A stretch of DNA of 64,000 nucleotides from Phoronis australis (GCA_002633005.1 NMRA01000924.1:1-64000); one strand, 5' to 3'. Counted from the first letter of the stretch, positions 12,555-63,941 are shown. Numbers and translations are program-made. The notes: generated by a model from the sequence alone, not told the origin.

Positions 12555-13136
12555 TATAGTTTCAACCCGCACATCAAACTTTGTCATCACCCCTGCACAC
12601 TTATTCCAGTGGAAGTCCCACGAATGCATGATTGTCTTCAACGCCCCTATTGTCGGAGAACTGCAGCTGTAGACTTTCTTTTCATGTAGTTTTGAAGAAA
12701 AGAGAAGTTTTTAAGGATTTGTAAAGTTGTGTAATGAAACGGTGGAAATGTATACGTGTTTGAGATTAAAACTTACGTAGGACTAGCAGGGAAATGTAAA
12801 AATTTGGAAAAATCTTAGAAATGGTCGACCAGATTCATATGGAACGTTTGAATACTATTTTGTATGCGATGAGCTCAAACATAAACATCAGATTTTAAAG
12901 ATTTTTAAGGAAAACCCAAAAGTGCATACAAAGAAAATCGAAAAATTATTGCACAAATTAAAACCGTTTTGAGATTTCATTTTGAGGTGAATTAACCCCG
13001 ACATATCATGCAGTACGTGTAGACCTCTACCAGTGAAAGGAAGTCGCATGAGGGAAGTTACATGTTGCATCAAGTCAATTGTACAAATAGAAATTAACAA
13101 TGAGTCACAACTCCGCTACTTTTTACAGGCGTCAGC

Positions 13137-15649
13137 ATGGGATGTGGAGCTTCATCAGACTCAGCGCCACCTAGGGTAAACCAAGTGCATGGTGGCAAAA
13201 CTAAAGTTCAGGTGCAGCCAACGTCGCAGTCGATAGCTGTGACAAATGGAAACGCTAAAAAGGTGACTGTACAATCTCCACCGCTACCGGCACCAAAAGA
13301 AATTTCGACAGGGACCGCTTCACAACAGAAGAGTGGCGTAGCTGGCGCATTGCGCATCTTGGTCGGGTATCATTCCAGTTACGAAAAGTTAACTAATAAG
13401 GTTGTTAATTCTTTGAATATGCAGGGTTATGACGTGTTGAAAATGTCCGAACAGTATCCGCAGGACTTGGATATCCGTGAAGACGCCGTGCAGTGGTGCG
13501 GGGCTTTCATAGTCATGGCGTCGGTCCCTTTTGAGAGATCATTGCCGTGCACGGAGCTATTATATCACGTTCAGGGAAACAAGAAACCCATCTGCACCAT
13601 CGTGGTCCAGCCCAACTACGACCCACGTGGGCCCGTGGGAGCTTTATCTAGCCTCGGCATGAAAACAAAGTTCCCAACTGACCGCGATGAATTTCACGCT
13701 ACTCTGGACCAAGTAAAGCGATTTTTCAGCAAGAATTATAAGGATCCCGGAGATGCGCCAAAGCCATCTTTTGAGCAAGATGAATATGCCAACGATGTCA
13801 TGACAGACGGCAGGGGTAACAAGAATGGGCGAGTTGTGGTCATCTATCACGACGATGTCGGAGGGACGCTGGATTTACTGCAGGCACATAATTTTGGCGC
13901 CACTTTTAGTAATCCGAATACTGTAAGCAGAGACGAAATCCGGAACGCTCATATCATTGTGGCCGCTTTAACGGATGGCTTCCAAAAAAGTGACGTTTGT
14001 AAACAGAAGTTCAACATAGCACGTGCTACTGGACGTATCATAATACCGATAATAGCACAACCGCACCAGAGAGACGGCTGGCTGGCTTTGGGCATCGCCG
14101 GAAAGTTGTACTACGACTGGACCGGGCACAAGACCAGCGAGTCATTCTACGACAGTAATGTGGTCAAAGATTTCACTCAAGGAGTTCAAGCAGCCAAGCA
14201 AGAAAAACTCACCGATGATGAAAAAGAAGAACTGAGACTGAACAGTTACCGGAAAGACATGGAGAATTCTAAAGAGAGGCTTTTGAAAGCTGGCGGAAAA
14301 TGGCCGCCCCCGAAACGTCCGTCGTTGGAGAACACGCACGAATGTCTCCGTGATGTTTACGAACGTTCCGCAAAGAAAGACGCTGATCTGCCCTTCAACT
14401 ACATTCATCACCAGCTGACACGAATGACCTTCAAACCACCAGAACCTCTTTTCGATCACAATGGTGCCCCGATCGAGCGTAAGTTTGACTTGATGATCTC
14501 CTACCAGTGGGATATACAGAACTTTGTTCGTGAGTTTTACATGGACATGTCAATGCACGAGCTCAAAACCTGGTTCGACATTTGGGGTAACATGCGCGGG
14601 AACACGTACAGCGCAATGTCTTACGGAATTGAATGCTCATCCGTCATCGTTTCGTTCGTTACTAACAGGTACCAACAGTCTGCCAACTGCAATCTAGAGA
14701 TCAAGTACGCGATAAGTCTGAACAAACCCATTGTGTTCATCCTGGCCGAGAAAGGCATTACTCTGGAGCCATGGCTAGAGGAGGCTATGAAGCGAAACGT
14801 GGTATTCCATGCGTCCAGCATGTCAGACATGGCCGTGAAGGTGGGCGGGGTGGCGCTAGTGAAGCGCATCGCCGAGACTGTTCGCCTTGCAATCAAGCAT
14901 CTGGTGTCTAAGAACCCGCCGCCAGATGGCCTTACTGAAGAAATGTACGAGTACTACGAGCTGAAAGAGGACGCTGAGTACGAGCTGATGACGAACAAGT
15001 CACTGAACACTTCTGCTGCGCCCGGTGGGGGCTCTGACGTAAGTTATTATTTTGCACAACAGACAGTGTTAGATCCAGCAAAGTAGCGATATACATGTAT
15101 GTGTTTACAAGTGCACGTACATTTGCACGCGATTTCGTTGTATTGAGTTTGCTCACTAGGATATGTAGACACTTAAGTTTTTCTTGTATGTTGTGTGGAA
15201 AATGAGAGTTTCAATACGAGCTATTACAAGAATTCAGGAATTTTTATAACTGAGTAACTGAACAGTCAGTGTAAAAACTAAGTCAACTCGGCCTCTTTTG
15301 TGAAAGGTGGTCCTTTCCGCTGATTATTTTCCTACCAGTGAAACTTTGTTGACGTTCAACGGAAAATTTTCCATTAAGCTCACGTACATGTACGTACATT
15401 TACGTATTTCAGGACTCTGCTGGTTACGCCATATGTAAGCGGTGTGGTGCCAAGTTCGTCCTGGGAAATCCGGCTGGCTGCAAAAGACATAGATCTTACT
15501 ACATGGGAGGCACTATCATCGCCGGTAGGTGGACCTGCTGCCAACAACGCGGCCAGGATGCCTTGGGATGTGAGGACACCACCCACACGACCCAGCAGGA
15601 GACGTGGACTGAGATGCCTGGGTTCAGCGGCTGCTTCACGTGGAAGTAA
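13137..15649 (+). CDS. Lipid-anchored multi-TIR (3x TIR_2-like) protein with C-terminal CHORD/Btk-like zinc-binding module, 712 aa; coding exons 13137-15038, 15413-15649
   Basis: The 649-aa ORF starts MGCGAS just after acceptor ttttacag (13128). TIR-like units lie at about aa 72-197 (ILVGYH...SLPCTEL...KKPICTIVV), aa 232-352 (VVVIYH...FQKSDVCKQKF...IIIPII...GWLALGIAGKLYYDW) and aa 449-585 (FDLMISYQWD...TWFDIW...YQQSANCNLEIKYA...KPIVFI). A phase-0 donor gac|gtaagt at 15038/9 and acceptor tttcag at 15412 add 78 aa with C-x2-C-x11-C-x2-H-x15-CC-x9-C-x4-H. Stop TAA is at 15647-15649. Confidence 0.88.
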
Positions 15650-18600
15650 GCCCGGGGTACACCGAGCTTAAGATTACCCTTAGATATTAAACTACATCAG
15701 CGACGTTGCCTGGAAGTACTGAAGCCGGCACCGTAGCCTGAGAGCACGTGTACCTCGTGACAGAAACTTGAGGCAGCGAGATTGACTTTGGTCGCGCGTA
15801 CTGGGGCCGCGGAAAGGAAAATGCGACATCTCGTCATATACTGGGTATTCAACCGAGCAAATCATAAATGTCTTCTCTTCGTGGTTCATTTCGAAATGGA
15901 CCGTTACGATGGCACGTAAAAAGAGCGCGAACAGGCGGCAATCAATTTTGACGAGATTGGCTATTCCAAGAAGTTGACTGCTTCATATTTTGGAATTGAA
16001 TAATAACTTTCAGGAAAATTGACATTTCGATACCAGATTAATAGAATTAATCACCCTAGAAGTGGGAAAGAAATGGTTTCAACCGAGGATTACCTGCTGT
16101 TGAACGGCTTCGTTTCTGAGTGGAAGCCTACCCGTTGGCTAACTACTAAAACACATCAGTAGGCAGCTTCTCGCTCCTGAATATAAACCTGCCAGTTGAC
16201 TTTATGACTTTAGTGCCCCCTGCAGCGCCATATATAGAAATCATTTTGTCAATGTTTTGCGGAAGAACTCCGTCGTCTGCTTCTGTTAATACGCCGGTAT
16301 TGCGTTCCAAAGTTTACATGAAAGTACCCTAGCTCAGAAGGCGTACAGTATTTCGACTGTGCCAAGGAAAAGATTTATCGCCAATTTTAAAGCTAATATT
16401 CCAAAGAAGTCATTCCTATTTTTCTGTGATAATTACTGTAGCAATAAATTATTTGGAAATGTTATAAGCTACCTTATGAATGTCTGACTTCCGTTATGAG
16501 TACAATGAAATTTGATTCTCTCACAGTCGATGTTTTTGTGAATATAACTTCAACAACTAAGAGATTTTAAACCTTAAAACACCCTCGGGAAGACGTGATA
16601 CCAATCACTCATTCACCTTCGTCTATACAACCCATTGGAATTGAACAATATGAATTTCTAACCTATTTACAGCGTCAGAAAGAAACTCATCTTTTGATCC
16701 CAAGTGGAAGGTGAGAATATAATTATTTACCGTTGGTTTGCAAGTGGATTTTTCTGACAGATTCTGAACGTTGGTCAGTTTACTTGACTTGAACACTGAG
16801 TTGACGCTCGTAATTTCAGTGCAACATACAGTGTACGGACAAATTATTATCTATTGTAGAAACGTTCAGCCTTAAGAAAACCATTTACTATAGTTAAGCT
16901 GTGCTCAGCTTATCAGTATCCTGGGCCGTTTGAGGGAAAGTGCAGACCTCAATGAGAAACAGGGTTCGTAGGTCACGTGAGCTCTGAAGCCGTTTTGCGC
17001 TCGTAAATTTAGCTCGCAGTTTTGGCTCGTTAATTTACATGTAAATTTTAACACTGAATTGGTCGTTGGATTTACATGTAAGTACCAGTCCACGAGACTA
17101 CCAGCCACTCAACTAATACACAACTGATATTGTTTTGGCGATGCAAATGTTTTTTTTTATTCAAATGTCTTGAAAGAGAATGAGTGTTTGCAACCATCAT
17201 TTCGAAATTCTACTACACTAACCCCCACACCGTTGATGTGTATGAATGCTTTTTCTGCAAGATTGACCAACTTTGAAATTTAGACAATTTTAAAAAGCGT
17301 CAGCTTTTCAATTTCATGACAAAAATTAGCATACATGTACATGTGTATTCATTAAAGTGCCAAGAGTGCCTGTAGACCCCTTAACTTATGACTTCAGTTC
17401 ACAGTTATTGACCGGTGCTCCAGTCATGTTTCACCAGATCTTTTAAGGCCGTCTTTTCCCTGAAATTAGCTGTACATGTGGAGTGTGCCCCAAACTACCA
17501 CTTCCGCGTTCCTCGGTATTGAACGCACGCTTACCACGTACTTGTGCTTGAAGCAGACACATATACATGTATGTGTACTAAAGAACAAAATGACACATAG
17601 AACATATTCACCCGAATTTGATATACATGTAGCGGGAATGGCTGAAAGGAACATTATTGAACATGGACTTCCGTGTACTAGGCTGTCGGTAAAGTCCATG
17701 AAATGAATTACACTATTTTAACGCTAAGCGTCGATCTGTTTAACTGGCTAAAAACGAAATATAATCAAACATTTTACTCTGGAAAAGGCAGTTGTACAGT
17801 AATCGTTGCCGTGATATGATTTTAATTGACTTGTACATGTATGTCTGTTATAGATGAGTTAGAATTAACCTGGAAACAATTAGGCGCTTGAGTATTACAG
17901 CGTCCTGTCGTTCAGTAACTTTTCCAGACCTGAGGGGTGCTGAACGTGCGATAATATCTGGCTTAACTTAACTTACATTTTTATCAGCTCACCCCAGTCA
18001 GACTAGATACGATCTGACGGGAGATTAGAGCAATTATCAAACAGAAGAGCGCAGGCTTCCCAACCATCAACGCCAGAATGGAGTTAATTGGCTACGGGGG
18101 GTAAACTTCCCAACTTGTTGTTGGGCTATACAATCGAACAACTATAGTTGGGAGCAACGGGAAGTCGCCGTCATGGACTATTGGGATGGGTCACGTGCGC
18201 GCTCGAACGAGTCCCCCATTTGGCGAAGTGAGTAGAAAGGTGCACCTCAGAGAAACAAAATTTCCGAAAAGGTAGAAAACGAGATAAAAGTCCACTAAAA
18301 AGCGGGAATTCTGCGAATGCACAATTCATAGCTCTGAACGTAAATATTTTTGTTAATAAAAGGTTCACATTTACAAAAATTCGAGCCTCCCACTTTAAGT
18401 TGGAAGCGCTCATGGGCCAACCCCGAAATTGTGCATTCGAAATTGACGCAAGAGCGCAATGCCTGTGTTATGAATTGCCTTCTCATTCAGTCACATTTCA
18501 GACTCGGATGAGCGTAGTATCATTTTTTAGCCCAAGGATATTATTCAGTTACAGCTAAAAGCGGCAAACATAGGCTCAGGGAATTAATACAGAACGCGAA

Positions 18601-47700: not shown

Positions 47701-49958
47701 CACAATAGAAAGTAAATGCACACCTCAAACTGCACGCAAATCAAGTACTGAGTATGCATCCCTGCCACCATATCTGTGCCACGTTTTGTTTTGAGTCGTT
47801 TTGATAATTTTGGAGAAGCACTATTTTGTTGAAAACGGAATGGCACGGCAATTGAATTTACATGGTGCTGGCGCATCTCACCCATAAACTGTAGTGTGAA
47901 GTTTCATAAGAACCTGTCGTGCTGCTTAAGAAAATTAACAGACAAGACAAATCTTGAGGGCATTTAAAAATGCAGCAATAGCGTTAAAATGCCGTTGACT
48001 ATTCTGGTAACCACATAGGCTAGTTGTATCTGTGTATACGTACACATCTGAGAAAATAATTGGGCTGGTCGAATGAAGCTTAGAGTTTAAGACAAGTTCA
48101 AATCACCCTGTCCACATCACTGGTTGACTGGGAACAGATTCACGTAGGGAAGTGAAAGTAGTGTACAAGTAATCGCATTTTTTCAAATGACTGTTGCTGC
48201 AGTCGTAAGTAGCGCAAATAGCACGGTGTCAGTTGACCCTCAGAAATTGCGTGCACCCCTGTCGGTCCTTGGCTCTACATGTTGATATAAGTTTCACGAG
48301 TTGACAAACAGAACTTAAACGTGCCACATGAAACTTTGGGAACTAAGAGAGCTCAACACACACATTAGTAGCAAGCTGTGTTTTGACCATAGTCTTCATG
48401 CATCTACCCGAGATAGCCAGCCAGGTAACTACAGCTTGTTACCACTGACTTCCAGCATGTCATGGCATGTGCACTATTCTAATCTATACTTATATGGTGT
48501 ATACTAAATTTATGTTCAAGTAGATTGAAATGAGCTCCCATGGGAGCATACTAGAGGTATGTTCCACAAAACTACAAGAACATAAACACGCATGACCAAA
48601 GAAGACAATCCTCGGCCATGCCTAGCCCCAACCAGACCCACTGGTTCCCCCCACGATTGCCAAATTCTTCAACAAGCATTAGACTCCCTAGCCTCTTGGG
48701 AAAACTCCTGGAAAATGAACTTTAATATCTCCAAATGCAATACTCTTCGTATCCACAGAAAACGTTCCCCCATAATATACAATTACAGCCTACACAACGC
48801 TTCACTCAAATGCATTAATAAAGCCCCATACCTCGGGGTCACTCTCAACAATAATTTATCATGGAACACTCATATAGACAAAATCACCTCAAAGGCAAAC
48901 AAAACTCTTGGCTTCATTAAACGAATTCTCAAATATGCTCCTCAAAAAACAAAAGCCCTTGCCTACACTTCACTTGTTAGACCAAAACTAGAATACTCCT
49001 CCTCTGTCTGGGACCCATCCACTCGTACAAACATTGAAAACATAAAAAAATACAGTGTAGAGCAGCCAGGGTCGTTTTAAATGACCACTCAAGGTACTCC
49101 TCCATTTCATCCATGCTCAAAACTCTCAATTGGCCAACTCTCCAGGAAAGACGAGCTCAGAACAAACTATTCCCTCTGTTGTAGATGTGCTTCCGGTGAA
49201 TTATATGAGACTCTGTTAGCTACTCGCTAACGGGCAATTGCCTATTAGCTGAATGGTTAGCACGCTTGCCGGTTTTATGGGGGTCGCGGGTTCGATCCCC
49301 GAGTCAAGTGAGCTCGGCTATTACTACACTTCTGTACAAGACCGTACATAACCTCGTTGATATTCCTCACTCATACCTTCCACTCCTACAGACCTCCATA
49401 TCACATAACTCCCACTCCCATACCTTTGAGAGATTATACATCCGCACTGCATACTACGCAAACTCTTTCCTTCCATCTACCATTCTACTCTGGAATAGAC
49501 TCCCACAATTCGCCATCTCATTAGAAAATACTAGAAATATTCACAAGTCTCATCTTGAACATCAATCTTACACCGTAATCATAAGACCTTTTTATCTTGG
49601 CACTAACCAGCACTTCGTTTTATCGTTATTTTTCAAAGTTACGTGCATCTAAGTTTTATACTAACAGTGCGCCAACAAGTAAGGATCGATACCACGATCG
49701 TTTGTTGATTTTTGGAAGAAAAGAAGTAAGAAGAGCCAAGCCAAGCCAGTCAAGGCAAGGGTTAGATCTCCGCCAACGTCATAGGCCAAACTATTCACTG
49801 CTCACATGATCGCAGCTCAAAACTCTAAAATTTTTCCACACTTTGTGCATAATACTAGATGCTTTGAACGGTACAAATGTCAACAACCACTCTTAAAACG
49901 TCACAAAACTCACCTTAGAATGTCTCGACTCGGGACCAACATTACTAGTCGCCGCCAT
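29434..49958 (-). CDS. INTS5: Integrator complex subunit 5, 945 aa, 18 exons (5'->3'): 49958-49914, 47323-47015, 46659-46505, 45564-45469, 42964-42739, 42005-41888, 40048-39819, 38082-37946, 37557-37452, 35681-35494, 34972-34776, 33367-33249, 32928-32725, 32370-32135, 31754-31684, 30846-30698, 30100-29944, 29528-29434
   Basis: The spliced translation has INTS5 signatures: [144 protein letters not shown]...VTIERDL, and the C-terminal [16 protein letters not shown]. All introns are GT-AG with consistent phases; total 2838 nt. A few internal boundaries (e.g. the exon 11 donor) were chosen by phase fit. Confidence 0.93.
33404..33625 (-). mobile_element. tRNA-derived SINE, family A copy 3 (INTS5 intron)
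   Basis: Same sequence family (ggcggtctg..gtaccagacgtgc..catgtgg..gccacac); 9-bp TSD gcaactgaa at 33395-33403 / 33626-33634. Confidence 0.75.
34049..34286 (+). repeat. 58-bp minisatellite, about 4 copies
   Basis: Unit ggata(c/a)atatcaaactttcaggtaccatgctttatgtgttgttctttgaaatgctgct. Confidence 0.9.
35728..35758 (+). repeat. (CAA)n microsatellite
   Basis: About 10 perfect CAA units. Confidence 0.95.
36508..36965 (+). repeat. 60-bp minisatellite, about 8 copies
   Basis: gtgatcccaacattaaagct... at 36511, 36571, 36631 and 36691, followed by increasingly diverged copies. Confidence 0.85.
36988..37132 (+). mobile_element. Penelope-like inverted-repeat insertion with degenerate hammerhead core
   Basis: Arms 36991-37028 / 37066-37103 are inverted. 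The loop has atga-t-gtct..agac-gaaacgtt. A 12-bp direct repeat ttaaatcttaag flanks it at 36976-36987 / 37133-37144. Confidence 0.5.
40078..40718 (+). mobile_element. Probable solo LTR (Gypsy-like) in INTS5 intron
   Basis: TGT...ACA termini, TATAAATA at 40351, repeated tctagaa/ttccag motifs upstream, and a 3' end ggtaagccctagaca. Near-TSD aatac/aaaac (one mismatch). Confidence 0.5.
41016..41622. mobile_element. Tc1/mariner-superfamily MITE (CCGTA termini, TA TSD)
   Basis: ta|ccgtattcgctgtaataacc ... ggttattacggtgaatacgg|ta with repeated ggggcgctta subterminal motifs. Confidence 0.8.
41697..41868 (+). repeat. Imperfect (GATGATGACGGGCCT)-type minisatellite
   Basis: Explains the Met-rich and His-rich spurious ORFs; lies in the intron next to an INTS5 donor site. 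Confidence 0.85.
43686..43789 (-). mobile_element. Duplicated HINE-like 3' termini
   Basis: Two copies of caagagcaat(g/a)tag(g/a)cattgac..gcacccattgggggcctc. The reverse complement gives hairpin caatg..cattg plus ctcttg, as at 22561-22582. Confidence 0.45.
43820..44172 (+). mobile_element. Kolobok-like family copy (INTS5 intron)
   Basis: Co-linear with 3630-3973 and ends atcctt|ttaa. Confidence 0.65.
45203..45290 (+). repeat. ~44-bp direct tandem duplication
   Basis: ctaggt.attagttctac...atccattagcagaactgcacctc occurs twice. Confidence 0.8.
48630..49560 (+). mobile_element. 5'-truncated non-LTR retrotransposon (CR1/L2-like ORF2 C-terminus), frameshifted, in INTS5 intron 1
   Basis: [72 protein letters not shown], then LYK..HNLV and [17 protein letters not shown]: the typical region downstream of LINE RT. 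Frameshifted near 49050. Confidence 0.9.
49172..49320 (+). mobile_element. tRNA-head SINE fragment nested in the LINE
   Basis: TAGCTGAATGG (A-box) and GGTTCGATCCC (B-box) at about 49246-49299, without a complete cloverleaf; interrupts LINE homology. Confidence 0.55.
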
Positions 49959-54953: not shown

Positions 54954-55574
54954 GTATTAAAATTGTGATATTTTGAACAAGTTTAACATGGCAAAGATAA
55001 AGATTTGCCACTCAAATTTCAGTTCAATTTCAAAAATTATTCTGTATGACACATGGGACACGCGAATTCACGAACAGGCACGACAGGAAAAATTAATAGG
55101 TCTTCAATAGGTTTATAAGACAACGGGGTAGGATTTTGATTATTTCGAAGAGAGAGAGAGGGTGCCCGAGGACAATAGCAAATCTGGCCCCATTTTAACC
55201 CGGCGATGATCGTGTTCGCACACACCCTTTATAGCACAGCTTTCTATTAAACTCGTTAGACAAATTCCAAATCTCACCGTTAGCTTTGATAATCATCAAC
55301 TTAAAGGAAACTGTCGGTTTTCAAAAATGATGGTGCACCAAAAGAAAATTGTGTTATTTGCGCGAGATGAAGCCATCATACAAAAAGCGAGTAGTTCTAT
55401 AGCATTATTTTATTTTACTTATCATTAGCAATGAATAAATATTCATTTTGAGAAAAACTATACAGTGGCAACAACGTTGCCCTTGAGTGAAACGCATAGT
55501 CATTGGGACAAAGTTGTACTACAGGCACTGTTTCTCATTTACAGGTAATTCACGGCACAAGCCTGGCAGACGAC

Positions 55575-58500
55575 ATGGTCTTTGTTGTCAAATTGTTTAC
55601 ACTCATCTTCGTCGTGATTTTCACTTTTCTGATTATGACGTCGAATTCTTCTCAACCACCCAAGTCCAAAGTTCAACCAGGAATTTCAAGGTCGAGACAG
55701 TCACAGTCCGAAGTCCATTTGACAAAAAAGGAAATTCGACGAAAGCAGGACGAAGATCTGGCTGAAAAGAGTCTGCGCAATTGTCACGTGATTGAGAGAA
55801 AGCGAGAAGGGTTGCATGTGCTTTCGCGCCATCCCCGCGACGCAAAAAATTATCTCAGAAGAAGGACCTCAGCGTCTTTTGGAAATGCAGTGAAATTTTC
55901 CAAAGGAGGCGCTGTTTTACGCTTACGTAAAAGTGGCATTACAACTCTCCCACGACAGTCATTCAGTGTAACGGCTTGGATCAAACCGGAAGGGGGCCAA
56001 GCAGACGGGGTTCTAATCGTTGGTGAGTAGAGCACGTGATAGAGTCACGTGACACAGTTATAACCATAACCTCAGCGTCAGAATTGCAATTTCAAATTTT
56101 GCTTGAAATTGCGAACAAGTGGTACACTTTTTTGTTAATCAATTTCGTTTATTGAACGAAAATCTTGAATTCAGCATTTGTAAAACAAGAATATTCGAAA
56201 CCAGTTTTACATCCGTAACGTAACCTGCAGTCATTTAAAGTACTGTATGTCTAGTTTACACATACGCTACCTCTTTGCCACTAAAAAAGGTTTCATAATT
56301 TTCTATTGTCGACCGAGCAATAATATTCCCATTTTCTCTCGGCTCTTGTACACGTATATCTGAGAAAAACGATTGTGCGAACGGCAAAAGCTAAGGAGTG
56401 TGAAATTGGCATCCAACGTTCTGGATATGATTATGCGCACACCGCAAATCAATCAAGCACAATTAGAGGAGGTCAAACTATTTGTCCACCAGGCAGGTGT
56501 TTATATTCCAGTTTATTATTCTTTATTTTACACGCTTTTCTAATACGAATTTGTTGATGGAAATTGGACCTCAACCAAATTCGAAAATCTAATATTGGAG
56601 CCCAGTGGAACCGACTGGTAGGAGATATTAACGATTGAATTGAACGCCAGAGCGGGGCAGTTTATCTGCGTTGAACGGATACAAAAGAAAACGACAAACA
56701 TAATGAAATAAATCCAGCCGTGAAATGAAATAAAAAGCAAAATCTACATGTATGGTAAAATGCTATACTGTAACCCTAACTTTCATATGTTCTTATAGTA
56801 GCTGGTGGAATTTAAGGTACATGCCAAGAACGTCGTTATTTGTTTATTCACAAGACAAATAAATTCTTGCTAAAAATGCCTTTTCTACCAATATCATCAC
56901 GGGGGATATAGAGAGACAATGGTCGCTTATTCAATTTGCTTTTTAAAATCTCAAATTATTCCATTCTACTAGTACAGCGCGCTTGACATGGCTCAAGACT
57001 TGAATTTTTTTTCACTAAAAACGTTTGGTTTTCCAAGAAGTCCATTTTGCCAATCATTTTTTCCAAACTATAGTGACACTGTTCTCAAACCTTGTCATGG
57101 TCTAGTTAAAGTTATCAATCGCCGATTTTGTACTTAATTTTGGCAAATACACAACTGCAGTCACTTTCAAATCGAAAATATAGTTAATACTATTACAATT
57201 TAAAAAAGAACTCCTGATACTGATTTGTAGTTCATTGATGTATTATATTTGAAAATTGCGTCATTCTGTAATGTGATGAAAACCCTCATGTAGACACATA
57301 CGTTGTACTACAATACGTGGAACGCCAGCTCCTTATATTCTCAGTGCACAAGATGAGTCATCATGCGCATAAACTTCCACCAACCCTATTGGCCCTCAAC
57401 GCCATTGCTCACTTGCTCCGCCTGGTGTGATAGATGTTTTACTTACGCCAAATACGTACATTGTCAGCTCACTGTGCGGTTCCATGTAGCTGGACAGGGC
57501 AGTATGAACTGTTTAACCTTTATTTTTTGAAGATTGTCGACTAGATAGTCAAAAAGTTTGTGATTTACCATATCCAAGATATTCATTACCACAAATCGCC
57601 TTTCCTCCATGCGAAACACTCAATTTGGAATACATGATGTTAATGATTTTGGTACTAACTTGGTAATTTACGAGACCAGTCGTGTCCGCCCTGAGACCAA
57701 CATTCATACAATTACTTAGCCCCAAAACAAAGAAAACAGTGAATCTTCAAATTATTGCAGTTATAGCCTTATTGTCATTGCAAGCGCACTATTGCCGATT
57801 ACTTCGTCATTGGCGAATCCGAGATCGAGTGAATAAAAAGCTACCTTCATGAATTATCGCCGCAGGTCTAAGTTAAAAAAAGTCGGTAATTATGTTAAGC
57901 CACTGATGACATAACTTGATTGTCAAGCCCTGTTTTCGCCATTTATTCGCTATTTTAGGAGAAATTTGCATCGTTAGGTCGACATAGAAAGAACTGAAAA
58001 AATTGAGCTGTTTGTTCTACCTACATGTGTACATGTAGATATCAACCACGCATGTGTGCACGCCCTGCGTATGCTCAACTAAATTTCTGGGGCTTACTTA
58101 AGCTACTAACATTCGGTGTAGTGAACTAATACTACCCGTTGTTACGAAAAGGAAATAAACTTCACTCTGACAGGCATCTTTGGCAAGGCCTTCTCTGAAT
58201 AAAGAATGGGATTATATCTACACTAGTTATATACATGTATAATATGGCGACCTCAGGTTAATAATTATGGCTGTATTTTACAGCACACGATCAAGAGATA
58301 ACCTTTTTTGAAATAAACGTTAGATGGCGCATAATGTGAACGTGAGATTCAAAATAGAAGCATTTTTGTGAACTGTGGCTCATGATAGTGCTGTACATAA
58401 AAGTCTACACTGTACTTCCTGGAACGAATTTATGCTATTCTGGACGTATTGGACTGACACAGTGAAACACGATTTTAATTCGCTTTTTAGTGTGACGTCA

Positions 58501-61500: not shown

Positions 61501-63941
61501 GGGTACGTATTCATTATCACAAGTTTTTACCAAGCCCAAAAATGATACAGTGCGTTCTTAAAACTGTAAAAACGCCTCATCATCGCCACTGTTCGAAATA
61601 CAATGTATAACTAGTAGGAAGAAGAACAGACGGTTACGCAGAAAACATTGCGAAGATTTGATTTTGAAAGAATTTGTACACGTATGCATTTTTTTGCAGA
61701 TACAAACCAAATCAGTGGGTTCATGTCGCTGCCGTTTACAACACGAAGAAAATGCGACTTTATATAAATGGCGCTAAAGTCGGCACCAGCCAGGAGCAGT
61801 CAGGAGACATCCACAGTCGAGTTCACGCGACTTGTCGCGGGTTGAATATTGGCGGAAGCGTAGACGACAAAAAACAATATCGCGGAGAATTGGATGGGTT
61901 TCAGCTATGGGATAAAGCATTGCGACATCAAGAAATTGTCTTTAATATGCTCGCTGAAAAGCATAAACCTCAAAAAAGCTTAATTGTCATGGAGACTTTC
62001 GATAACTTGAATAAATGGCAGAAAATACAAGGAACATTGCCGAGACTGGTTCGGTCAGATGTTTCGTTAGACAGGCATGATGTCAAAATCTCGAGGCCAC
62101 GGTGTGGCCGCTCTATATGTGACGATCCTGAAGTCATTAAGAGTTATGAAAACAATAGCAAGTTGAGACAATGGAAGAAATTACGTTACAAGGTTATTAA
62201 CGTTGCCATGGACAACGGTAGCTTTCCAACGGTGTCGCAAGATCAGATTAACAAGCAGCACGCATTTCTGAGAAAGGCGTTTCAACCATATAAGATAACT
62301 TGGGACTTGTCTGAAGACATCATTCGAAACACTACCCTCCGGAGTAAGACGATTTTATACGGATGTGAGCCGAAGAAGGTTGGAAACGGCATGTGCAATC
62401 CCGAGTGTCAACATCATCGCACCGGAAATGATGGCGGCGACTGCAAGATAACAGACGACTGTGATAGCACTTTGATTGGCAACGGCGTTTGTAATGAGGA
62501 CTGCAACGTGGCCATTAATAACTGGGACGGTGGAGATTGTTGTAATCCTGATGTCACCGACGTAACAAAAAATTGTTTCGACCCTTCTTCACGCCACAGG
62601 TAAAGTAACACAAAAATTACGCACAATTTATCCTCTATTTCTTGAAAAACCTATACCGAAGCTCTAAATGTATTCAGACCGAATTTAGAAGTAGTTTAAT
62701 AAAACAAAATAAACATTTTGCCTACGTCACCATTTTATCAATATTTATATTGTTGCTGCTACTGATATAGTCGTGAAGACCAGTGTTTATATTTTCGAGT
62801 TTGTGTAATAGAATAGAAGTTTCAAACAAATATTTTCTCGCTTGAAATCGGTAAAACTTGTGGGCAACATTTTAATTTTCTTAGGATACAGGCTCATTAT
62901 TCTGGTAGGGCTCCGTGTACCAAGTTTCAGCTCAAGTCAACGTAAATCTACACGAAAGAGAGGCGGGTGCATCGAGAAAATGCCTGAAACCTTACCTAGC
63001 CTCGACAACAAAATTGTGGCCTTTTATATGGTTGCTCGGTATTATTGGAATCTTGATTTATGGGGAAAGAAATCATAAGTTATGAAATAGTATTCTCTAT
63101 TTCTGTACCTTAAGCGAATAAGAGTTTCTCCTACATGTACAATCTAATCTTGTAGTTAGGTCTACGAAACGCAGTAGTTCTAAACAATGCATTGAGAATG
63201 TTCATTGTATAGGACACTGAAATGGTATACATGTATGGTGCAATCGTATACCGTTTTCTATGGAAAGCCAACAAGTTATTTTGGAAAGGCGTACATTGCA
63301 CTTGTTCATACGAGTGCATTGCATTCGTACGTACGAATGTGAAGTCTTGTCTTGATCTGGACGTTAGCGACAGAACGTATGTCTCAGCGCCACCTATAGG
63401 GTAATGTACTTGGAAAGAGTGCAAGGCACGCTGAAATTGTAGTACAAACTTTTTGTTTTGAAAATTTGACATTTATTGCTCTTGTTCATGTGTTTCTCGT
63501 TTATCGTGCATGAGTGCATGCATCTCACAGTGGTAGAATTTATAACATTTCGTTAAAACAAAGTACTCTATCTTTTTAGTCGCAGTTCGATAATCCGGAA
63601 AGAATGGTGTTTGGTTAATAACCAAAGTTACTGGATTATTAAAGAATGTGCATTTCCTGATCGCAAAAATTAAATTCTCAATTTAGAACTGAATTCCAAT
63701 TTTCAAACGGAAAAAGATGCTTTCAGCAATGTCTAATAAACAACATATGTCGACAATTTAAGCTATCATTTCTTGTTCATCTATTCCTTTCCCAGATCTT
63801 ACATGACAACTGATGAATATAAGATAGCCCTTAACATGAGCAGCTCAAAACACCTAAACATCTTCTTCGCTACCTGGACCGCTAAAGACCTGGTCGGCCT
63901 AGCTACGCTGCCCTGGGAGAAGCAAGTCCACTCCGTTCTTG
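55575..63941 (+). CDS. PAPPA: Pappalysin (PAPP-A family metzincin), 5' partial; coding exons 55575-56022, 61349-61502, 61700-62599, 63796-63941; continues beyond the window
   Basis: Signal peptide MVFVVKLFTLIFVVIFTFLIMTSNS, then a basic propeptide ending LRRRTS. LamG-like domain motifs: FSVTAWIKPEGGQ, GYVDKC...GWSIG...YFTLQTDRA, QWVHVAAVYNTKKMRLYINGAKV. Then CGRSICDDPEVIKSY, two LNR repeats (CEPKKVGNGMCNPECQH..GNDGGDC; IGNGVCNEDCN..NWDGGDCC) and HLNIFFA...LVGLATLPWEK. Phases 1,2,2 are consistent. The zinc-binding motif lies outside the window. PAPPA versus PAPPA2 orthology cannot be resolved here. Confidence 0.92.
59736..59895. mobile_element. ~160-bp MITE, family B copy 2 (pappalysin intron)
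   Basis: Co-linear with 19653-19813 (ctaggacctacgct..cacggcaatatctc..gcgaagtcttgctttttagcga..ttactgaacgggaggc). Confidence 0.7.

What the first reader, a model, noticed from the sequence alone, without database searches (positions are those of the whole stretch)
13137..15649. Membrane-anchored triple-TIR protein fused to a CHORD/Btk-like zinc module: candidate uncharacterised innate-immune sensor/enzyme
Seen in sequence: MGCGAS N-terminus, three tandem TIR-like folds, charged helical linkers (about aa 352-385 and 598-620), and a spliced last exon missed by the ORF track. That exon encodes C-x2-C-x11-C-x2-H-x15-CC-x9-C-x4-H; its second half (GRWTCCQQRGQDALGC) matches the Btk motif W/Y-x-CC-x9-C, and the whole resembles CHORD spacing. 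Established: Gly2/Cys3 starts direct myristoylation plus palmitoylation; TIRs signal by assembly or NAD+ cleavage (SARM1, plant TNLs, Thoeris); the CHORD protein RAR1 supports plant NLR immunity. Inference: there is no LRR, TM, death, SAM or ARM domain, so this is not a TLR, MyD88 or SARM1. I do not recognise this architecture as a described family.
Basis: partly seen in the sequence, partly recalled or inferred. Interest (0 to 1): 0.82.

Follow-up and report, generated by a model that had tools for sequence, protein, structure and literature searches.

The report
Three-TIR protein with zinc-binding tail
This transcribed invertebrate gene encodes three TIR domains plus a zinc-finger-like tail and belongs to an already listed but unstudied eukaryote-wide family; it is likely an NAD-processing signalling enzyme whose three domains are predicted to pack, within one chain, the way separate TIR molecules must normally assemble.

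Summary
The gene has two coding exons (13137-15038, 15413-15649; 712 aa), is transcribed, and encodes three TIR folds plus a conserved eight-ligand Cys/His module that contains a Btk motif. The architecture is not new. [quoted passage not shown] Named relatives come from cnidarians, a nemertean, an annelid, a flatworm, a rotifer, chytrids, oomycetes, a cryptophyte and an ochrophyte. I found no functional study. New here: only TIR3 keeps the NADase signature (Glu in 45 of 46 rows); TIR2 keeps the donor-face motif that TIR3 has lost; and a model of a 40%-identical homolog packs TIR3's BB loop/αB/αC on TIR2's βD/βE/αE and TIR1's αD, like a three-subunit piece of a parallel TIR filament. Best reading (0.5): a single-chain NAD+-processing TIR enzyme with a composite site built in cis. 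Not supported as family traits: Cys3 palmitoylation and obligatory membrane anchoring. CHORD membership and an immune role are unproven.

The parts
13137..13154 (+). N-terminal MGCGAS, a likely N-myristoylation motif (Gly2, Ser6); Cys3 is rarely shared by homologs
   Evidence: Sequence; 10 of 11 MG-starting homologs have S/T at position 6, and 1 of 11 has a Cys at 3-6. The motif rule is recalled knowledge.
13137..15038 (+). Coding exon 1 (aa 1-634)
   Evidence: RNA depth
13350..13736 (+). TIR1 (about aa 72-200): degenerate. Glu140 (13554-13556) is shifted by one residue against the canonical position. Its conserved P-x-G-x-x-G-A (αD) is predicted to touch TIR3 αB/αC
   Evidence: hhalign; homolog fold match; Glu in 36 of 44 rows; interface
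13830..14195 (+). TIR2 (about aa 232-353): catalytic face lost (Lys291 at the Glu position, 14007-14009); keeps the G-W-L-x-L-x-I-A-G-K-L-Y donor-side motif, predicted to touch the TIR3 BB loop
   Evidence: Glu in 11 of 45 rows; 1 of 67 columns of the βA-αC half against 8 of 56 of the βD-αE half are at least 80% conserved
14196..14291 (+). Charged helical linker (about aa 354-385), followed by a conserved W-P-P
   Evidence: Helix 286-310 in the homolog model; alignment
14388..14480 (+). Conserved pre-TIR3 segment (aa 418-448), role unknown
   Evidence: Many invariant columns in alignment A1; 5 of 29 columns at least 80% conserved in A2
14481..14912 (+). TIR3 (about aa 449-592): S-Y-x-W, W-x-D, M-x-G-N BB loop and Glu521 (14697-14699); the likely catalytic domain
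   Evidence: Pfam TIR_2; Glu in 45 of 46 rows, Asp in the other; 26 of 80 columns of the βA-αC half against 2 of 57 of the βD-αE half at least 80% conserved
14928..14996 (+). Acidic helix (about aa 598-620) before the zinc module
   Evidence: Helix 526-546 in the homolog model
15039..15412 (+). 374-nt phase-0 GT-AG intron
15413..15649 (+). Coding exon 2 (aa 635-712, stop)
15434..15586 (+). Eight-ligand Cys/His module (aa 642-692), likely binding two zinc ions; its second half is a Btk motif
   Evidence: Pfam BTK; ITK/BTK/BMX hits at E 0.003-0.04; all eight ligand columns 93-100% conserved. Zinc binding itself was not tested.
15650..16108 (+). Likely 3' UTR
   Evidence: RNA depth continues to the bin 15988-16108 and is zero beyond it in all runs

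Best explanation
This gene is a member of the NG2 (TIR_2 + BTK) family and likely encodes a single-chain NAD+-processing enzyme, in which TIR3 carries the likely catalytic glutamate and TIR2 and TIR1 are predicted to complete and brace the active site within the same chain. Shown: the gene structure, transcription, family membership, three homologous TIR units, and the split of conservation (catalytic face kept only in TIR3, donor-face motif kept in TIR2). Predicted, from a homolog: TIR3's BB loop meets TIR2's βD/βE/αE (a BE-type contact) and TIR3's αB/αC meets TIR1's αD (a BCD-type contact), the geometry of parallel two-stranded TIR filaments such as MAL, MyD88 and AbTir. Inferred: NAD+ binds between TIR3 and TIR2 and is turned into ADPR or a cADPR isomer at one site per chain, as a signal rather than bulk NAD depletion. 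The assembly is capped, because TIR3's donor face and TIR2's catalytic face are not conserved. Activity would be gated by the zinc module, the pre-TIR3 segment or a ligand pocket in TIR1 (weakly inferred). A myristoyl group would place this member at membranes. An immune or stress-signalling role is inferred only from what other TIR enzymes do.
For: Glu521 column: E in 45 of 46 rows; S455, Y456, W479, D481, C518 and Y524 are 92-100% conserved across animals, chytrids, stramenopiles and a cryptophyte. The αC helix aligns with that of RPS4. Published TIR active sites lie between two TIRs at the BE interface, stabilised by a second interface (PMC11364022). Profiles from 50 non-family TIRs: the N-half scores TIR3 above TIR2 in 36 of 36 members, and the C-half scores TIR2 above TIR3 in 36 of 36. 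In 8 single-TIR clade-11 rows readable in the atlas supplement, both faces sit in one domain (6 of 8 with W-L-G-x-x-T-A-G, read by eye). The AlphaFold2 model has pTM 0.89, so the domains form one rigid unit. ESMFold2 on the two halves of the Lineus homolog scored 0.82 against a best control of 0.04 (the mark was reached by 51 of 78 solved complexes and 2 of 108 mismatches; runs agree in at least 68% of contacts; partner pLDDT at least 66). The conservation pattern was computed before that model, and the modelled interface residues are more conserved than the rest: TIR1+TIR2 0.57 against 0.40 (3 of 20000 random draws); TIR3 0.65 against 0.49 (79 of 20000). Precedent for a two-TIR pocket in one chain: Raw (PMC13455253).
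Against: No enzyme data. Only 12 of 61 Glu-bearing animal TIRs were active in a recent screen of isolated domains (bioRxiv 2026.04.20.719644). The models are of a homolog 40% identical over 550 aa, not of this protein. Two halves of one chain tend to pass the complex test, the alignment was not used, and the geometry may be remembered from solved TIR filaments; the NAD pose was neither scored nor shown. Only 2 of the 25 lowest-error contact pairs are TIR2-TIR3; 23 are TIR1-TIR3, and TIR2's interface enrichment alone is weak (693 of 20000), so the BE contact is the less secure one. The outgroup TIRs were found with a family profile, so the half-profile test is partly circular, and the strict donor motif is present in only 9 of 50 of them. 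The conservation comparison does not correct for buried residues. TIR1 keeps its own conserved H, E, R, Q, E set, which the model does not explain.
Confidence: 0.5

Rival explanations
1. TIR3 is an NADase, but TIR1 and TIR2 hold it shut; a signal frees it, and activity needs assembly between chains, as with SARM1 or the RPS4/RRS1 pair.
For: TIR enzymes are normally kept off until assembly, and the RPS4/RRS1 TIR heterodimer is proposed to be an inactive state (PMC11364022). A pre-built site needs some other off switch. The predicted contacts cover TIR3's BB loop and αC, Glu included.
Against: TIR3's own donor half is poorly conserved (2 of 57 columns; median 0 bits against the outgroup C-half profile), so TIR3-TIR3 strands are unlikely. 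There is no SAM, NB-ARC or other known oligomerising domain. A swapped TIR3-TIR2' contact between chains is not excluded.
Confidence: 0.2
2. It works like Raw/OLRN-1: a multi-TIR hydrolase of cADPR or another nucleotide signal that removes a signal rather than making one from NAD+.
For: Raw needs both TIRs for one pocket and hydrolyses cADPR, not NAD (PMC13455253). TIR1 keeps a shifted Glu (36 of 44), and it also matches nucleoside deoxyribosyltransferase folds (7o62_A, Z 12.3, rmsd 2.8, 117 aligned).
Against: TIR3 has the ordinary clade-11/TIR_2 signature found in single-domain TIRs. Raw TIRs are described as a separate family with dimerisation domains; I did not compare sequences with Raw.
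Confidence: 0.15
3. It is a non-catalytic adaptor: a pre-formed three-TIR seed or decoy that starts or caps filaments of other TIR proteins, with the zinc module binding partners.
For: The predicted geometry is that of MAL/MyD88 filaments, which grow from seeds. Amphioxus multi-TIR adaptors bbtTIRA and bbtTIRC inhibit TLR signalling by binding (PMC6043800 passage). Some TIRs with the Glu are inactive.
Against: Pocket residues and the Glu of TIR3 are nearly invariant across very distant eukaryotes, including oomycetes, chytrids and a cryptophyte, for which no TLR/MyD88 pathway is known to me (recalled). The outward filament faces are the unconserved ones.
Confidence: 0.15

Closest known systems
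Actiniarian 'Novel Gene 2' (TIR_2 x1-2 + BTK motif; van der Burg et al. 2016, PMC5094078)
   Same: Same family. Actinia tenebrosa P0197 (676 aa, matching the paper's 2031-nt ORF) and Nematostella P0198 (664 aa) are 33-34% identical to exon 1 over about 570-585 aa and 56-57% identical to exon 2. The paper's L1JXD3 (Guillardia) and H3H1G6 (Phytophthora) are in the clusters of my hits.
   Different: The paper saw one or two TIRs and only the Btk half of the zinc module, called the gene lineage-specific, and gave no function or mechanism. This member groups with an annelid and a nemertean sequence in a quick tree.
Eukaryotic TIR clade 11 (TIR atlas preprint, PMC13142454)
   Same: Its supplement lists Nematostella (3 TIR + BTK), Raphidiophrys and Phytopythium (2 TIR + BTK) in clade 11, and a Mylnosiga 3 TIR + BTK protein outside supported clades. 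The text calls clades 9-13 uncharacterised.
   Different: BTK is never mentioned in the main text. The clade also holds single-TIR and other architectures (14 of 81 rows seen).
Raw / OLRN-1 (two-TIR cADPR hydrolase, PMC13455253)
   Same: Several TIRs in one chain; one pocket proposed between two of them.
   Different: Described as a separate TIR family with DD1/DD2 dimerisation domains and two catalytic Glu in TIR1; no zinc module is described in the passages I read.
SARM1/TIR-1 and AbTir NADases; MAL/MyD88 filaments
   Same: TIR3 superposes on SARM1 TIR (9mw2_A, Z 15.0, rmsd 2.0, 126 aligned), AbTir (7uxu_A, Z 13.8) and MAL (5uzb_A, Z 14.0). The predicted contacts are of the BE and BCD types.
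   Different: Those assemble from separate chains into open-ended strands. This protein has no ARM, SAM, death, LRR or TM domain.
Btk motif (Tec kinases) and CHORD domain (RAR1, CHORDC1)
   Same: H-xn-CC-x9-C matches BTK above the Pfam cut-off; the four further ligands give a CHORD-like eight-ligand pattern (CHORD spacing recalled). ESM Atlas features point to BTK (13% of members) and CHORD (19%) clusters at 0.94, flagged as weak evidence.
   Different: The Btk motif normally follows a PH domain (recalled). No significant sequence match to CHORD (E 2.3), and no CS domain or tandem CHORDs.

Membership tests
NG2 (TIR_2 + BTK) | TIR_2 domain(s) upstream of a Pfam BTK motif in one chain | tested here: met
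   on each exon; junction supported by homologs and weakly by reads
NG2 (TIR_2 + BTK) | Full-length homology to the named NG2 proteins | tested here: met
   BLASTP to Actinia and Nematostella proteins E about 1e-101 (exon 1) and 1e-28 (exon 2) in a small database; to H3H1G6 over 450 query residues; to the L1JXD3 protein over TIR3 and the zinc module only
TIR domain fold (each unit) | Flavodoxin-like five-strand TIR fold | tested here: met
   Homolog model and superpositions Z 13-16; unit 1 also matches deoxyribosyltransferases and receiver domains at Z 11-12. Not modelled for the window's own sequence.
Catalytic TIR (NADase type) | Glu in αC at the catalytic position | tested here: met
   Met for TIR3 (E521; 45 of 46). 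Not met for TIR2 (K291; 11 of 45). Shifted by one residue in TIR1 (E140; 36 of 44).
Catalytic TIR (NADase type) | NAD+ cleavage | not testable with these tools
   Needs an assay
Catalytic TIR (NADase type) | Composite site at a BE interface | tested here: inconclusive
   Predicted TIR3 BB loop to TIR2 βD/βE/αE contact, but 2 of 25 best pairs only, and the NAD pose is not shown
TIR clade 11 | Phylogenetic placement in the atlas tree | not tested
   Inferred from the Nematostella ortholog's label; I did not place TIR3 in their tree
CHORD domain | Sequence/profile match to PF04968 or solved CHORDs | tested here: inconclusive
   2yrt at E 2.3 across the whole module; not listed in Pfam scans; Atlas feature hit 0.94, weak
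CHORD domain | Interleaved two-zinc fold | not tested
TLR / MyD88 / SARM1 | LRR+TM, death, or ARM+SAM domains | tested here: not met
   Pfam; hydropathy
Raw/OLRN-1 family | Raw-type TIRs with DD1/DD2 domains | not tested
   No Raw sequence was in hand; only the paper's description was read
N-myristoylated proteins | M-G-x-x-x-S/T N-terminus | tested here: met
   MGCGAS; 11 of 36 homologs start MG; the modification itself is untested

The most novel reading that the evidence does not exclude
NG2 proteins are ancient eukaryotic single-chain TIR enzymes in which a three-subunit piece of a parallel TIR filament has been frozen into one polypeptide: one catalytic TIR, one donor TIR and one brace. 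They make an NAD-derived messenger without oligomerising, under the control of a two-zinc Btk/CHORD-like switch. This would be an exception to the rule that TIR enzymes work as open-ended assemblies.
Probability: 0.35. Interest if true: 0.75.

Novelty: new member of a known kind. Interest (0 to 1): 0.48.

Why it matters
TIR enzymology in animals outside SARM1 and Raw is just opening up, and clade 11 is listed as unstudied. If the in-chain composite site is real, this family gives a soluble, monomeric model of the TIR active state that otherwise needs filaments. It would also mean that screens of isolated TIR domains miss such enzymes. Its presence in animals, chytrids, oomycetes, a cryptophyte and an ochrophyte shows that the gene called anemone-specific in 2016 is widespread. 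The gene and its domain list are not themselves a discovery.

Tried and rejected
Single-sequence AlphaFold2 of exon 1 failed (pLDDT 34). Whole-model Foldseek was dominated by spurious multi-domain α/β matches with rmsd around 20 and gave nothing for the zinc module; neither did the VIA-align searches, which is no evidence about its fold. No genome is held for this window, so copy number and paralogs were not checked. No indexed RNA holder was listed; three raw-read runs of the same species label were laid instead, and no joint reached the listing threshold in two lays; run X4 gave nothing. Searching with exon 2 alone for other architectures found only 2 proteins among 4 candidates, which is uninformative. 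Ten literature searches found NG2 and the atlas but no functional study of the family; subscription papers are mostly not covered. The earlier-findings index gave nothing. The careful tree did not finish; the quick tree (39 rows, fragments left out) was not tested with clade tests, so I make no claim of gene transfer. A first interface-conservation test was inflated by two insert columns and was redone with columns of 20 or more residues. Seven rows were dropped from the outgroup as likely family fragments by a 52% identity rule (57 to 50); some of them may not be family members. Rejected: conserved palmitoylation at Cys3, actiniarian-specific origin, TLR/MyD88/SARM1 membership. Homo-oligomers were not modelled.

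Full report
The gene. The window shows a long exon from ATG 13137 to a GTAAGT donor after 15038 and a second exon from 15413 to the stop at 15649, in phase 0, giving 712 aa. Pfam finds TIR_2 in exon 1 and BTK above its cut-off in exon 2. Three raw RNA runs laid 49, 37 and 24 reads on 12600-16200, nearly all 99% or more alike, mostly in the orientation expected for a plus-strand transcript in a stranded library; a fourth, contig run laid none. Both exons and a 3' region to about 16100 are covered, and the intron centre is empty. No joint was listed. In run X2 the depth falls from 2 to 0 in a way that fits two reads ending at 15038 and resuming at 15413, though about 21 read-bases inside the intron end are unexplained. 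The stronger evidence for the splice is that homologs carry both parts in one chain.

The family. The first search gave 11 homologs, among them Lineus, Owenia and Actinostola. A profile search of 1.84 billion representatives gave 101 proteins at E 1e-30 or better. Looking up 30 hits gave names for some: Macrostomum, Hydra, Rotaria, the chytrids Obelidium and Siphonaria, the oomycetes Lagenidium, Saprolegnia and Phytophthora, Guillardia and Mallomonas; most hits are unnamed. A deeper search added Actinia tenebrosa and Nematostella. After crude de-duplication, 36 proteins of 600 aa or more carry the zinc pattern. No named hit was a vertebrate, insect, nematode or land plant, but this was not a test of absence. 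A quick tree puts the window's protein in a 98-support group with anemone, annelid, nemertean and flatworm sequences; Hydra and Rotaria lie in a second animal-containing group, and stramenopiles and the cryptophyte in a third. I did not determine the organism; it is an invertebrate animal by this placement.

It is in print. Van der Burg et al. [quoted passage not shown] Both accessions are in my hit clusters, and the Actinia hit has the length of their PCR-validated 2031-nt ORF (their supplement swaps the numbers of genes 1 and 2). A 2026 TIR atlas (PMC13142454; passages, all 4 BTK rows and 14 of 81 clade-11 rows of supplement 1 seen) tabulates the Nematostella protein as three TIRs + BTK in clade 11, which it calls uncharacterised. 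The ESM Atlas has an automatic cluster of the same name (57 members). Ten searches found no functional study. One gap matters: a 2026 screen (bioRxiv 2026.04.20.719644; parts 1-3 of 6 and passages read, figures and supplements not available) found active TIRs in Guillardia, Phytophthora, Rotaria and lancelet. The first three are genera that have this family. BTK does not occur in its text or figure abbreviations, but I could not check the identifiers.

Three TIRs, one catalytic. The units are mutually homologous. AlphaFold2 of the Lineus homolog with 54 aligned sequences gives pLDDT 90 and pTM 0.89, and each unit superposes on solved TIRs at Z 13-16. TIR3 keeps S-Y-x-W, W-x-D, M-x-G-N and the αC glutamate (45 of 46 rows). 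TIR2 has Glu there in 11 of 45 rows and Lys in this protein. TIR1 has a Glu one residue off in 36 of 44. Conservation is split by face: columns at least 80% conserved number 26 of 80 in TIR3's βA-αC half but 2 of 57 in its βD-αE half, against 1 of 67 and 8 of 56 in TIR2. Half-profiles from 50 non-family TIRs prefer TIR3 for the N-half and TIR2 for the C-half in 36 of 36 members each. This is partly circular, and the strict donor motif is in only 9 of the 50; but single-TIR clade-11 rows chosen by others show both faces in one domain.

Predicted geometry. Folding the two halves of the Lineus protein together scored 0.82 against a best control of 0.04 (mark reached by 51 of 78 solved complexes and 2 of 108 mismatches; on eukaryotes 39 of 65 and 2 of 126; runs agree in at least 68% of contacts; partner pLDDT at least 66). 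Halves of one chain tend to pass, and memory of solved TIR filaments is possible, so the pass itself says little; the residue list is what I use. In the window's numbering, TIR3 482-499 (BB loop, αB) and 516-527 (αC) touch TIR1 164-173 (αD) and TIR2 301-303, 322-324 and 338-353 (βD, βE, EE loop, αE) (element names assigned by me from the DSSP order). By the definitions in PMC11364022 (passages and section 15 read) these are BCD-type and BE-type contacts, the two that build parallel two-stranded filaments, and enzyme sites lie in the BE interface. Interface columns are more conserved than the rest, clearly for TIR1 and TIR3 and weakly for TIR2. Only 2 of the 25 best pairs involve TIR2. No zinc-module residue is listed as touching TIR1 or TIR2.

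Mechanism. I favour a single-chain enzyme (0.5): Glu521 in TIR3, site completed by TIR2, braced by TIR1, acting on NAD+. The rivals are autoinhibition with assembly between chains (0.2), a Raw-like hydrolase of a cyclic nucleotide (0.15; PMC13455253, abstract and passages read) and a non-catalytic seed or decoy (0.15; bbtTIRA/C known to me from one review passage). The base rate is sobering: 12 of 61 Glu-bearing animal TIRs were active as isolated domains, although an enzyme of the kind proposed here would be missed by such a test. Nothing here shows an immune role.

Zinc module and N-terminus. All eight ligand columns are 93-100% conserved. The second half matches ITK, BTK and BMX structures (E 0.003-0.04). 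The whole module meets CHORDC1 only at E 2.3, so 'CHORD-like' stays a resemblance. MG starts occur in 11 of 36 members, across animals and stramenopiles, 10 of them with Ser/Thr at position 6; a Cys at 3-6 occurs in 1 of 11. Myristoylation is likely for this member; dual acylation is not a family feature.

Verdict. The interest lies in the testable idea of a TIR filament fragment built into one chain. Interest 0.48; the boldest reading has probability 0.35 and would merit 0.75.

Noticed in passing
window 13110-13136: A pyrimidine-rich tract and AG (13127-13128) lie 8 nt before the ATG, suggesting an upstream non-coding exon. Run X1 has some depth on both orientations at 12842-13083, so this is unresolved.
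   Followed up: partly
window 55500-56030 and 61668-62603 (+): The second ORF has Laminin_G_3 and Notch/LNR domains. With the first ORF (no Pfam hit), these look like exons of a pappalysin-type gene (name recalled); unrelated to the finding.
   Followed up: partly
window 48586-49652 (-): Two ORF remnants that read like the C-terminal part of a LINE reverse transcriptase (recalled resemblance; no Pfam hit for the one scanned).
   Followed up: partly
window 1-64000: TACATGTA occurs 42 times against about 2 expected from base composition; I recall this enrichment from lancelets and some other marine invertebrates.
   Followed up: no
proteins P0071, P0073, P0078, P0079; atlas supplement rows for Choanoeca, Mylnosiga, Salpingoeca: A second multi-TIR architecture of about 770-830 aa without the zinc module; the atlas rows show three clade-11 TIRs with another domain between them. 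It may be another in-chain TIR assembly.
   Followed up: no
atlas supplement rows for Thunnus, Takifugu, Nematostella P013978, Clytia P001390: A conserved, roughly 300-aa clade-11 protein (single TIR with intact Glu plus a C-terminal domain) is shared by fish and cnidarians; a simple partner for comparing single-TIR and triple-TIR activity.
   Followed up: no
cluster of P0025: Rotaria magnacalcarata has many records in the family (16 cluster members), and the Atlas cluster is mostly rotifer; this may be a local expansion or redundant assemblies.
   Followed up: no
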